Origin: a virus
Lineage: Duplodnaviria; Heunggongvirae; Uroviricota; Caudoviricetes
Virus record (IMG/VR): IMGVR_UViG_2551306674_000013
Direction: 5' to 3' (one strand)
Length of the DNA: 19,629 nucleotides
Part shown: positions 3,001 through 6,000 of the stretch, in pieces
Numbering within the stretch: the first letter of the stretch is position 1
Layout of the letters: every line of letters begins with the position of its first letter
Position numbers: made by a program

Positions 3001-6000
3001 GCTCTATTTGTTTGTTTTCGCCTTCCAGGCGGTGACCACGTTTACGGTAGTCGCCATCAACAGCAATCAGGTATAGGCATTTATGACTGTCAGCCCGCCA
3101 GCGACGTGGCGGAAGTTCCCCCAGGCATGACAGGATAATATTGCGTACGATCTCCTGCATCCCGGCGTCATTGATATCGCAGTCCAGAGCCACCACCCCG
3201 TCGCCAGTACGAACGCAAATACCGTAATCGGGTTCGTTCGACCACCGGGCAAAATCGTTTTCCGTAACAACATAGTTAGCCCAGTCGGGGATACCAACAA
3301 CCTTACGTTGGCCATTGTAGCGACTGGGAGTTTTGCCGAAATTATGAGACAGCTTGCTATTAGGCGACAGTTCTGCACAGGGATTGGACACCACAGGTAA
3401 AAGCCTGTCTGTCATCCCCAACACCAGATCGAAGTGGAACCACTCATCGGGCGTAGCTCCCCATGGTTTGTTATCAGACATGGGTTACGCCTTTTGTCTA
3501 GCTGTCACTTCCTGAAAAAGCTTTTCTATCGCACGTACTGTAGAAAAGCGAGGGTCAGAATGAACCCCGGTGAGAAGCCGACTAATAGAAGACTGCTTCA
3601 CGCCTGCAATTTCGGCAATTTGGTTTTGGGTATACCCTGAATCAATCAAGCTTTTGACCATCTCTTGTGGTGTTAGTCCGGACATATTTAAGTCTCCACT
3701 TTCGTCTATAGCGCAAATTTATACGAAAACGGATTATTCAGCAATACAGCAATTCTATGTCATCCTGGATTAAAATATCCGATAACGCATAATCACCGTC
3801 CCTGTATACAACATGGATGAATCCAAATGATTGATACTACCGATATCCTTTCTCAAAACATCAAGTACCTGATGGACAAAGCCAAGATAAGCTCGATAAC
3901 TGAGCTGGCACGTCGGTTACAGCTGAACCAACCAACGCTACACAGGCTGGTATCAGGAGAGGTGAAAGATCCGAAATACGCAACGTTAAAGCAGATCGCC
4001 GACTACTTCCACGTGTCACCAATAGACCTGGCAGAAAGGAGCCTTCAAGAAATGGAGAAAGAGGACGCGACAGGTATAAAAACGTATATTTCTCTTAGGT
4101 TTAATAAAGTACCTGTTTTGGGAAACACTCAGCTAGGCGTAGGAGGACTTTGGAGCGACACCCAATATTCAGTAGGTAGCAGTGATGGTTTCATATACTG
4201 GCCGACAAAGGATGAAGATGCATACGCCCTGAAATGTGTTGGTGATTCAATGATGCCTAGAATCAAAGAGGGTGAGTTCGTAATCGTCGAACCCAACCAC
4301 GACTACACTCCTGGTGATGAAGTACTTGTGGTTACCCAGGACGGTGAGGTCATGGTTAAAACCTTCTTGTTCGAACGCGATGGCCTGTTCCATCTAATGT
4401 CTGTAAATGAAGATCATCCACCAGTCAGAGTACCACGCGAAAACATTGAAAAAATCCATTACGTGGCGGGGATCGCCAAATCCGCGCTACGCATGTACTA
4501 ACCTTTACAGTCTGATAACTTACTTCTGATCAAACCGCTCTCCACAAGGGCGGTTTTCTTATTTGCAAAATAATTCATTTTCGTATTGACACAAAATCCC
4601 ATAACGCATATAAATACGATATCGCATAATTAATGCGTTTTTTAATACCAGCTCTTTAACAAACTGAACCGCGTGACAGGTAAGCCGCAGTACTCCTGGC
4701 AAAATGAAATGGCACCCGATGGGATCGAGGTAAGCGCCGAGTCCGTATGCGTACGGTAAGCGTAGAGGACAACACCGCGACGAACTGATAAGTCACGCAA
4801 GTTGAAACGCCCCGACGATGGGGCGCTTAGTTCCTTTAACTCTGGGTGGCCGGAAAGGTACCCATGCTTAAAGAAATTACTGGTTGTAAGGATCGTAATC
4901 CGTGATTGCCTTCCCCGGATTTTCATCTTCAGCAGGCAGTCTGGCCTCTAAAGCATTTCGGTTGAACAGATAGGAAGCCCTACAGTGCGAACAAACCATA
5001 TTAACGGCTCGCCCAAGGCCTGGCTTAATAACCAGACCTTCCGCTTGCAATATAGATTTTCTCTTTTGCTCGTAGCAATTGGGACAAATATAAACCGGAG
5101 ATTGGTCAGTATCTGCAGAAAGCTTGCTGCGATAGACCAGAGTACCCCGCATAGGCTGGTAAAGTTCATAGCTCGCCGCTTCAGCGGCCCAGTTCTCTTG
5201 CTTTACTTTCTCATTTTCCAGTTCAACAATTTTCTCCTTAGCCGCAATCAGCAGCTCCTGAAGCGACATTTGCTGCATCTGAACATCCATTAGCTTATCG
5301 AGTAAGGTGTGCGTCTTCTCTTTAACTGCATAGTCGACAGTCAGATTCTGAATCTCTCTTGCTGCTCCAACCGCGCCTTTAATTGCTCCTCCCACGCCGG
5401 ATAACGATTCAGTTATCCGGGAAAGAATTCCTTTTTCTTCAGACATATCTAATCTCTCTCAAACTGTAGGGGTGAAGAGATATTAGACGATTTCTCACTG
5501 TAGGGGTACAAGGAGAACCACCTCGCCTGATGTGGTTAAAAGCAGGCACTCGATGATATCCATGTAATTGCTGTGTGTAGTCTTTGCCCGCCGCAAATGA
5601 CGGGCTTTTTTATGTCTGAAAGCGCACTCGCAACAGCGCGCTCCCCGATATGAAAAAAGGAATACAACCGATGAAACCTGAACACCTCTATCGACTGACG
5701 GGGCGCGATGTTCTCCGTTATCGCCGTAAAAACTTCGATTTGATGACCGGTCTGGCCGTTGCCACTGCGCTCGGTCTGATCATCACTTTCATTCTCCTTG
5801 TAGCGAGGACCACAGTATGAGTTTAGAAACCAGTCTCGAACTTAATAATCAACTTCTGGCACAACATAATGCGCTGCTTGAACGTCTTATCCGCACAATG
5901 GCATCAGGTATTGTTATGCATCCTGACACGATTTCACGAGTGCAGGAATGTCGGGATACAGCAACTGAAACTGAAAATATGTCAGCGGCAATGACACTGG

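What the first reader, a model, noticed from the sequence alone, without database searches (positions are those of the whole stretch)
5671..5820. Unannotated 49-aa tail-anchored membrane protein at the head of the rightward operon
Seen: ORF below the track cutoff with good SD, ATGA overlap with the next gene, basic N-terminus (RDVLRYRRKNFD) and a 22-residue hydrophobic C-terminus (LMTGLAVATALGLIITFILLVA). Established: the first genes of lambdoid early-left operons are often small host-targeting proteins (for example Kil-type). Inference: a small membrane-targeted host-inhibition or exclusion factor.
Basis: partly seen in the sequence, partly recalled or inferred. Interest (0 to 1): 0.4.

Follow-up and report, generated by a model that had tools for sequence, protein, structure and literature searches.

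The report
Small tail-anchored early phage membrane protein
The 49-codon reading frame is a real, conserved prophage gene for a tiny membrane-anchored protein made early in lytic growth; its job is untested, and more unusual is the copy of the tail of the host regulatory RNA RprA lying just upstream.

Summary
The ORF at 5671..5820 is real. It has an AAGGA Shine-Dalgarno 9 nt upstream and an ATGA overlap with the next gene. It encodes a basic N-terminus and a 22-residue hydrophobic C-terminus. It is not unannotated in public records (GenBank URC08720.1, RefSeq WP_000801676.1, PHROG 11981, all function unknown).

It is intact in all 91 related loci at 46-49 aa, and dN/dS is about 0.35 in this frame only. 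The family is confined to Enterobacteriaceae prophages. Residues 1-19 and 39-46 are about 95% conserved; the middle varies. In every complete locus it lies upstream of a 300-aa protein plus a DUF2800 nuclease, SSB and PolA module.

The promoter is not adjacent. A PL-like promoter sits about 1 kb upstream (4587-4615). It is followed by a boxA-containing structured leader, an inserted 189-aa gene on the opposite strand, and an intrinsic terminator carrying the 3' module of RprA (5566-5611). The protein can therefore only be made after derepression and terminator read-through.

Best reading: a tail-anchored inner-membrane protein acting early on a membrane-located host target (division/envelope block or exclusion). 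The function is inferred, not shown. The main rival is a membrane tether for the replication module. It is an ordinary kind of gene with an interesting upstream RNA.

The parts
5671..5820 (+). 49-aa ORF. Cytoplasmic Arg-rich N-terminal helix (residues 1-23), transmembrane helix (about 24-45), 4-residue periplasmic tail.
5657..5661 (+). Shine-Dalgarno AAGGA, 9 nt before the ATG. Relatives have AAGGAG or GGAG at the same place.
5817..5820 (+). ATGA stop/start overlap with the 300-aa gene (translational coupling).
   Evidence: The overlap is ATGA in most loci. It is TAATG where a DUF7666 gene has been inserted.
5817..6719 (+). 300-aa partner gene (phrog_6784). Its C-terminal third matches phrog_408, the protein that precedes the DUF2800 nuclease in phi 12.
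   Evidence: All 80 loci found through this protein have the small ORF directly upstream.
5566..5611 (+). Mimic of the RprA 3' module: AATTGCTGTGTGTAGTCTTTGCCC, then a hairpin, then T6. It acts as an intrinsic terminator and ends 59 nt before the ATG.
   Evidence: PMC9262595.
4587..4615 (+). PL-like early promoter: TTGACA, 17 nt, TATAAA. Operator-like AWCGCATAW sites lie at 4603 and 4621.
   Evidence: Read directly. Equivalent promoters occur in five immunity types. Motif enrichment. The scan does not list it because that scan requires T as the last base of the -10.
4651..4825 (+). Conserved leader RNA: boxA GCTCTTTAACAA plus a multi-helix structure closed by GCGUGAC/GUCACGC, then the hairpin GCCCCGACGAUGGGGC.
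   Evidence: No Rfam match.
4877..5446 (-). 189-aa zinc-ribbon gene (phrog_1244) inserted in the leader on the opposite strand. It is absent from many relatives.
3827..4501 (+). cI-like repressor (HTH plus S24 peptidase), with its terminator at 4532-4556 just before PL.

Best explanation
The ORF is a genuine gene for a 49-residue, C-tail-anchored, single-pass inner-membrane protein. The N-terminus is cytoplasmic, residues about 24-45 span the membrane, and 4 residues face the periplasm.

It is the first gene of the conserved replication/recombination block (300-aa protein, DUF2800 nuclease, Enc34-type SSB, PolA) in the repressor-controlled early operon of a temperate Enterobacteriaceae phage.

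Transcription starts at a PL-like promoter about 1 kb upstream. It must read through an intrinsic terminator that carries an RprA-like sequence. The protein is therefore made only after induction or infection.

It is translated from its own Shine-Dalgarno and is coupled by an ATGA overlap to the next gene. Because the anchor is at the extreme C-terminus, insertion must follow release from the ribosome.

The two conserved patches are the Arg-rich cytoplasmic helix (1-19) and the outer-leaflet end of the membrane helix plus Arg46 (39-46). They most likely grip a membrane-located host protein. The outcome would be an early host-takeover effect: a block of cell division or envelope synthesis, or of DNA entry by superinfecting phages.

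Shown: that the gene is real, its conservation, its operon position and the terminator. Predicted: topology. Inferred only: the target and the phenotype.
For: Gene reality.
- The ORF is intact in 91/91 loci at 46-49 aa.
- There are 30 protein variants and 42 nucleotide variants. pN/pS is 0.40 in this frame only, with Fisher p down to 1.5e-5.
- The N-terminal 22 codons have pN 0.066 against pS 0.28. Conservation is therefore at the protein level, not the RNA level.
- The SD is conserved, and the ORF matches phrog_11981 over its full length.

Membrane anchor.
- Kyte-Doolittle 2.56 and Hessa -2.5 for residues 27-45, with +4 on the N side.
- AlphaFold2 gives a single helix over residues 4-48, pLDDT 82.

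Two conserved patches.
- Residues 1-19 are 94% conserved, 39-46 are 95%, and the middle is 70%.

Early, repressor-controlled expression.
- PL and operator-like sites lie right after the cI terminator.
- The same layout occurs behind five different immunity types.
- In seven upstream variants the terminator T-run abuts the SD, leaving no room for a promoter.
- The scan finds no + strand promoter between 5447 and 5670.

Accessory rather than core.
- The DUF2800/PolA module occurs in 1639 phage records.
- The lytic Jerseyvirus, Dhillonvirus and Klebsiella 37P2 versions have no small membrane ORF. Temperate phi 12 and Corynebacterium phage Dina do.

Functional precedent.
- phiNM1 Gp11 is an early small membrane protein that blocks division through MurG and DivIC (PMC11237401).
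- Its homologue in phi 12 sits two genes upstream of the phrog_408 protein and DUF2800.
Against: - There is no experimental or homology-based evidence for any function. Pfam, NCBIfam, PADLOC and PDB give nothing, and there is no sequence similarity to Gp11.
- The strict linkage to the 300-aa gene (80/80 loci) and the ATGA coupling fit a phage partner as well as a host target.
- An exclusion factor would pay off most if expressed from the prophage, but this gene is silent in the lysogen.
- Small membrane ORFs are common in phage early regions, so the positional analogy is weak.
Confidence: 0.4

Rival explanations
1. Membrane tether or organiser for the phage replication-recombination machinery. 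The tail-anchored peptide binds the co-translated 300-aa protein through its cytoplasmic helix. This places the DUF2800 nuclease/SSB/PolA module at the inner membrane, much as phi29 p16.7 and p1 organise replication at the membrane (own knowledge).
For: - The small ORF lies directly upstream of the 300-aa gene in 80/80 loci found through that protein.
- Where a DUF7666 gene is inserted, the 300-aa homologue still follows.
- There is an ATGA overlap.
- The C-terminus of the 300-aa protein matches phrog_408, a core neighbour of DUF2800 across phyla.
- The N-terminal helix is invariant across host genera, as expected for a phage partner.
Against: - Many phages with the same module, and with phrog_408-like proteins, lack any small membrane ORF.
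- The conserved outer-leaflet patch and Arg46 are not explained by a cytoplasmic partner.
- The AlphaFold2 model of the 300-aa protein is poor (pLDDT 63.6) and has no informative fold match.
Confidence: 0.25
2. Modulator of the lysis-lysogeny decision that acts on a membrane protease, like lambda cIII inhibiting FtsH (own knowledge). A small early-left protein would stabilise a phage regulator.
For: - It is a small protein in the early-left operon.
- It is membrane-located, with a conserved cytoplasmic helix that could reach the FtsH cytoplasmic domain.
Against: - There is no similarity to cIII.
- No cII-like gene is evident: cro is followed at once by the primase gene.
- cIII is amphipathic and peripheral, not a transmembrane protein.
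Confidence: 0.1
3. Membrane-depolarising or pore-forming peptide, in the manner of type I toxins, holins or Sgl lysis proteins. It would shut down host energy or time later events.
For: - It is a very small hydrophobic peptide with a stripe of small residues (G27, A31, G35, T39) suited to helix packing.
- Its layout, a basic N-terminus with a hydrophobic C-terminus, recalls MS2 L (own knowledge).
Against: - It is embedded in an operon and translationally coupled. It has no antisense RNA or promoter of its own.
- The strongest conservation is in the polar N-terminus, not in the hydrophobic core.
- A dedicated holin, endolysin and Rz lie elsewhere in the genome.
- Early depolarisation would harm replication.
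Confidence: 0.08
4. N-like antitermination factor. The Arg-rich N-terminus would bind the boxA leader RNA, since the gene occupies the position that N holds downstream of nutL in lambda.
For: - A perfect boxA lies 30 nt after the likely transcription start, and a conserved structured leader follows it.
- It is the first ORF after the leader in this window.
- There are six Arg/Lys residues in positions 8-20.
Against: - The C-terminal half is a transmembrane helix, not a NusA/RNAP-binding domain.
- The terminator lies upstream of the gene, so the protein could not be made before the read-through it is meant to cause.
- 35 of 91 loci lack the boxA leader but keep the ORF.
- There is no match to N families.
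Confidence: 0.03
5. The peptide itself has no function. Either the frame is kept only so that ribosomes are delivered to the 300-aa gene, or the ORF is spurious.
For: The ATGA coupling. Very short length.
Against: - Amino-acid-level purifying selection, with synonymous change at normal rates.
- Length is fixed at 46-49 aa.
- The two conserved patches persist across seven genera.
Confidence: 0.03

Closest known systems
S. aureus phage phiNM1 Gp11 (phrog_369)
   Same: - About 50 aa, a membrane protein and an early gene of a temperate phage.
- A homologue lies just upstream of a phrog_408 protein plus DUF2800, DUF2815 and PolA in phage phi 12.
- It has a demonstrated host-takeover role (PMC11237401).
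   Different: - No sequence similarity.
- Gp11 has two hydrophobic segments and no basic N-terminal helix.
- It comes from a Gram-positive host, and its targets (MurG, DivIC) are not shown to apply here.
   Same: Small proteins of the early-left operon, made only in lytic growth (own knowledge).
   Different: - Kil is soluble and is not the first gene after PL.
- There is no homology.
- This protein is membrane-anchored.
T4 Imm / superinfection-exclusion membrane proteins
   Same: Small inner-membrane proteins made immediately after infection (own knowledge).
   Different: No homology. Imm is N-terminally anchored. The exclusion phenotype is untested here.
E. coli C-tail-anchored proteins ElaB / YqjD / YgaM (DUF883)
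   Same: A cytoplasmic helical N-terminal part, with a single C-terminal membrane helix that ends in basic residues (own knowledge).
   Different: They are about 100 aa, host-encoded and RpoS-dependent. There is no Pfam match at E <= 1.
RprA sRNA (Rfam RF00034), for the element immediately upstream
   Same: - The 3' portion matches annotated rprA in 5424 of 5426 E. coli genomes.
- The 22-nt single-stranded stretch UUGCUGUGUGUAGUCUUUGCCC is identical.
- This corresponds to RprAproc, the active last 47 nt of RprA (PMC9262595).
   Different: - It scores below the Rfam gathering score (50.2 against 70 bits).
- The 5' stem-loop and the rpoS-pairing region are absent.
- It lies inside a phage operon leader, not between ydiK and ydiL.
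- The terminator stem differs by compensatory changes.

Membership tests
PHROG phrog_11981 (unknown function) | Full-length HMM match | tested here: met
   E 9e-37, residues 1-49 on profile positions 1-49 of 49.
C-tail-anchored single-pass membrane protein | One hydrophobic segment of at least 19 residues at the extreme C-terminus, with no N-terminal signal sequence | tested here: met
   Residues 27-45 score Kyte-Doolittle 2.56 and Hessa -2.5. Only 4 residues follow. The N-terminus is polar and basic. AlphaFold2 gives one helix.
C-tail-anchored single-pass membrane protein | Actual membrane insertion with the N-terminus in the cytoplasm | not testable with these tools
   Only the positive-inside rule can be applied (+4 on the N side against +1 on the C side).
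Lambda Kil-type division inhibitor | Sequence homology to Kil | tested here: not met
   No Pfam or NCBIfam match at E <= 1 / 0.1. The only PHROG match is phrog_11981.
Lambda Kil-type division inhibitor | Filamentation on expression | not testable with these tools
   Needs an experiment.
Type I toxin-antitoxin | A stand-alone locus with its own promoter and an overlapping or adjacent antisense RNA | tested here: not met
   The ORF is operon-embedded with an ATGA overlap and a terminator directly upstream. No promoter or antitoxin RNA was found.
Lambda N-type antiterminator | First gene downstream of a nut site (boxA) | tested here: met
   boxA lies at 4651-4662, and the ORF is the first plausible + strand gene after it in this window. 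This does not hold in L012-type relatives.
Lambda N-type antiterminator | A soluble protein with an Arg-rich RNA-binding motif plus NusA/RNAP-binding regions | tested here: not met
   The C-terminal half is a transmembrane helix. There is no family match.
RprA (RF00034), upstream element | Score at or above the Rfam gathering threshold over the whole model | tested here: not met
   50.2 bits against 70. The 5' half aligns with low posterior probability.
RprA (RF00034), upstream element | Conserved 3' single-stranded stretch plus a Rho-independent terminator (the RprAproc part) | tested here: met
   The 22-nt stretch is identical to K-12 rprA. 18 of 26 distinct phage modules keep it unchanged. 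The stem shows compensatory changes: A-U, G-C and C-G at one pair, and C-G to U-A at another.
Anti-phage defence systems (PADLOC) | HMM match | tested here: not met
   No match for the 49-aa or the 300-aa protein.

The most novel reading that the evidence does not exclude
The ORF and the element in front of it form one conserved early cassette with an RNA half and a protein half. RNA polymerase leaving PL either stops at the terminator or reads through it. Stopping releases a mimic of processed RprA, a core Hfq-dependent stress sRNA, after RNase E trimming. Read-through, possibly aided by the boxA-containing leader RNA acting like a put/nut element, makes the membrane protein and the replication genes. 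The phage would then reprogramme host RprA-controlled pathways and the envelope at the same moment.
Probability: 0.25. Interest if true: 0.7.

Novelty: new member of a known kind. Interest (0 to 1): 0.3.

Why it matters
Taken alone, the ORF adds one more uncharacterised small membrane protein to the early-gene repertoire of temperate phages. It is a testable candidate for a host-takeover factor. It is present in about 3% of complete E. coli genomes (157 of 5426), including pathogenic lineages.

The context matters more. A phage early operon whose leader ends in an exact copy of the active 3' module of a core host sRNA appears not to have been described. If functional, it would be a case of a phage mimicking a host regulatory RNA. 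It would also give a handle on the still unexplained activity of processed RprA.

Tried and rejected
- **Domain and structure libraries.** Pfam, NCBIfam, PADLOC and PDB-sequence searches found nothing for the 49-aa and 300-aa proteins.
- **Exhaustive HMM search.** A search of 1.84 billion cluster representatives found only four clusters with E-value up to 1e-10, so no distant relatives exist to borrow a function from.
- **Structure prediction.** AlphaFold2 gives the 49-aa protein as a single helix, which is useless for fold search. The 300-aa model is poor (pLDDT 63.6) and Foldseek against PDB gives E >= 1.
- **Profile comparison.** The 300-aa family against the phi 12 120-aa protein was not significant. 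The link rests on the shared phrog_408 match instead.
- **Full-length RprA membership.** Rejected. The match is below the gathering score, and the 5' half belongs to the regulatory region of the inserted 189-aa gene.
- **A promoter between terminator and ORF.** Rejected. The scan lists none, and in seven variants the T-run touches the SD.
- **Start at the in-frame ATG 5650.** Rejected. It is out of frame or absent in relatives.
- **'First ORF after PL in all relatives'.** Rejected. L012-type loci have a 64-aa zinc-ribbon ORF before the terminator.
- **boxA leader as universal.** Rejected. Only 56 of 91 loci have it.
- **Formal pair counting on the terminator stem.** Not run. The ungapped alignment puts the short-loop variants out of register, so the compensatory changes were read directly.
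- **Literature searches.** Searches for the accessions, the phage name, 'RprA-like' and the RprA 3' sequence found nothing relevant.
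Full report
**What the window is.** The region is 100% identical to Escherichia phage vB_EcoM-606R2 (ON470579.1) and to prophages in E. coli chromosomes. The 601-nt stretch around the ORF matches 157 of 5426 complete genomes. On the minus strand lie the lysis genes, Q, a DUF5906/VapE primase and cro. On the plus strand lie a cI-like repressor (3827..4501) and a long operon. That operon contains the 49-aa ORF, a 300-aa protein, an HNH endonuclease, a DUF2800 nuclease, a DUF2815/Enc34-type SSB, PolA, a TIR protein, VRR-NUC and SNF2.

**The observation.**
- The ATG is at 5671 and the stop at 5818-5820.
- AAGGA lies at 5657-5661.
- There is an ATGA overlap with the 300-aa gene at 5817-5820.
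- The quoted basic and hydrophobic segments are exact.

The best 19-residue window (27-45) has a mean Kyte-Doolittle value of 2.56 and a favourable summed Hessa value of -2.5 kcal/mol. The N-terminal 23 residues carry +4, and the tail ARTTV carries +1. AlphaFold2 with a 41-sequence alignment gives one helix over residues 4-48 (pLDDT 82).

The ORF is not unannotated in public data. It is a hypothetical-protein CDS in GenBank and RefSeq and a full-length member of phrog_11981.

**Is it a gene?**
- A word-indexed search of 5.8 billion proteins found 52 clusters. Nearly all are 46-49 aa. They come from E. coli, Salmonella, Citrobacter, Enterobacter, Edwardsiella, Trabulsiella and relatives.
- An exhaustive HMM search of 1.84 billion representatives added nothing beyond four clusters. 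The family is narrow.
- The frame is open in all 91 loci gathered from genomes and IMG/VR.
- Across 42 distinct nucleotide versions, pooled pN/pS is 0.40 (dN/dS 0.35). The other frames give ratios above 1 or contain stops. The antisense frame that shares third positions has 0.8 stops per sequence.
- Single divergent pairs give Fisher p = 0.0045 to 1.5e-5.
- In the first 22 codons pS is 0.28 and pN is 0.066, so the N-terminal conservation is at the protein level.
- The in-frame ATG at 5650 is out of frame or missing in relatives. The SD is kept everywhere.

I take the gene as real (about 0.95) and the product as membrane-anchored (about 0.85).

**Conservation pattern.** Residues 1-19 (MKPEHLxRLTGRDVLRYRR) are 94% conserved. 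Residues 39-46 (TFILLVAR) are 95% conserved. The juxtamembrane stretch and the first half of the membrane helix are only 70% conserved. One conserved patch sits in the cytoplasm and the other at the outer-leaflet end of the helix. This points to specific contacts, not to a generic hydrophobic peptide. This step is inference.

**Where the operon really starts.** No + strand promoter-like site lies between the 189-aa gene and the ORF. Reading the sequence after cI shows the following:
- the cI terminator (4532-4556);
- TTGACA, 17 nt, TATAAA at 4587-4615;
- operator-like AWCGCATAW copies at 4603 and 4621, also present in the cI-cro region at 3784.

Relatives with at least five unrelated promoter/operator sets have an equally placed consensus promoter.

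From about 4651 a leader of about 175 nt follows. It begins with GCTCTTTAACAA, which to my knowledge matches the rrn boxA. It folds into a multi-helix structure closed by GCGUGAC/GUCACGC, with five covarying pairs. It has no Rfam match. Among deposited phages it occurs only in the four vB_EcoM-6xx genomes.

In this window a 189-aa zinc-ribbon gene (4877..5446, minus strand, phrog_1244) is inserted between the leader and the ORF. Many relatives lack it.

**The element immediately upstream.** Rfam reports RprA at 5502..5615, at 50.2 bits, below the gathering score of 70.
- Only the 3' part is homologous. Positions 5566-5611 match the annotated rprA of 5424 of 5426 E. coli genomes.
- The 22-nt stretch TTGCTGTGTGTAGTCTTTGCCC is identical to K-12 rprA.
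- This corresponds to RprAproc, the last 47 nt of RprA. RprAproc coexists with the full-length RNA and is active on its own (PMC9262595).
- Of 166 loci with enough upstream sequence, 157 carry the stretch. These loci include duplicates of the same contigs.
- Of 26 distinct modules, 18 keep the stretch unchanged.
- The terminator stem changes by compensatory pairs.
- In seven variants the T-run is followed directly by GGAG and the ATG 12 nt later. The ORF can therefore only be transcribed by read-through.
- Loci without the RprA-like stretch still have another terminator there (L004, L057).

The ORF is therefore the first gene after a terminator inside the early-operon leader. It is expressed only after derepression plus read-through. 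The boxA leader is a candidate processive antitermination element, but 35 of 91 loci have a different leader.

**Linkage.** All 80 IMG/VR loci retrieved through the 300-aa protein have the small ORF directly upstream. In E. albertii a DUF7666 gene is inserted between them, and a split 300-aa homologue still follows.

The 300-aa protein has no Pfam, PDB or fold match. Its C-terminal third matches phrog_408. In S. aureus phage phi 12 the 120-aa protein just before DUF2800, DUF2815 and PolA is phrog_408 at E 7e-36. The partner is therefore a core component of a module found in 1639 phage records.

**Function.** Nothing computational identifies a target. The useful comparison is positional.
- phi 12 has an unannotated 53-aa membrane ORF two genes upstream of phrog_408. 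It is a homologue of phiNM1 Gp11.
- Gp11 is an early small membrane protein shown to block S. aureus division through MurG and DivIC (PMC11237401).
- Corynebacterium phage Dina has a 47-aa tail-anchored ORF in the same neighbourhood.
- The lytic enterobacterial phages with this module (LSPA1, JL1, Klebsiella 37P2) and Streptococcus phage Javan626 have none.

The small membrane protein therefore looks like an accessory of mostly temperate versions, not an obligatory part of the replication machinery. This is why I rank a host-directed role (0.4) above a replication tether (0.25). There is no sequence similarity to Gp11, so this is analogy only. Other readings are scored in the rivals.

**Verdict.** The gene is a new, uncharacterised member of a familiar kind and scores low to moderate interest. 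The RprA 3' mimic and the boxA leader in front of it are the less expected features and deserve their own follow-up.

Noticed in passing
window 5566-5611 (+): An exact copy of the conserved 22-nt single-stranded stretch of the host sRNA RprA, plus a covarying terminator hairpin and T-run. This equals the active processed form RprAproc. It lies inside the phage early-operon leader. RefSeq annotates nothing there, and no paper was found that describes it.
   Followed up: partly
window 4651-4825 (+): A conserved leader RNA of about 175 nt. It starts with a perfect boxA (GCTCTTTAACAA) and folds into a closed multi-helix structure with covariation. It occurs behind at least five different immunity types and has no Rfam family. 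It is a candidate put/nut-like antitermination element.
   Followed up: partly
window 4587-4629 (+) and 3784-3792: A PL-like promoter (TTGACA, 17 nt, TATAAA) with AWCGCATAW operator-like sites. The same motif occurs in the cI-cro intergenic region. The palindrome CGCATAATTAATGCG at 4623-4637 was also flagged as terminator-like by the scan.
   Followed up: partly
window 4877-5446 (-) and 5463-5507: A 189-aa zinc-ribbon gene (phrog_1244, function unknown) is inserted on the opposite strand within the early leader. The early transcript must therefore run antisense through it. Two exact ACTGTAGGGGT repeats 34 nt apart flank its likely promoter.
   Followed up: partly
window 6722-7240 (+): A NUMOD4 + HNH homing-endonuclease gene lies between the 300-aa gene and the DUF2800 nuclease. 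It is absent at this site in ON470579.1 and NZ_AP022003.1. Other relatives carry HNH genes at different sites in the same module (L006, L007).
   Followed up: partly
window 9343-9426 (+): Rfam C4 antisense RNA (RF01695), 70.6 bits, above the gathering score of 45. This is a P1/P7-type c4-like RNA between the SSB gene and the 254-aa ORF at 9478..10242.
   Followed up: no
window 13111-13872 (+): The TIR-domain protein matches the PADLOC candidate defence family PDC-S35 (E 7e-109). It is embedded in the phage early operon just after PolA.
   Followed up: partly
L173 3037..3198 (AF424782.1 6165..6326): S. aureus phage phi 12 has an unannotated 53-aa two-segment membrane ORF. It is a homologue of the division inhibitor Gp11 of phiNM1 (phrog_369, E 9e-28).
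   Followed up: yes
L012 2690..2884 (+): In relatives without the 189-aa gene and without the boxA leader, a 64-aa CxxC...CxxC zinc-ribbon ORF lies between PL and the RprA-like terminator.
   Followed up: no
window 5817-6719 (+): The C-terminal third of the 300-aa protein (motif G-A-R/D-K-L-G/S-x-V/I-x-D/E-E) belongs to phrog_408. This small protein precedes the DUF2800 nuclease in Gram-positive phages. The enterobacterial version is a long form with an N-terminal coiled coil and a Lys-rich linker.
   Followed up: partly
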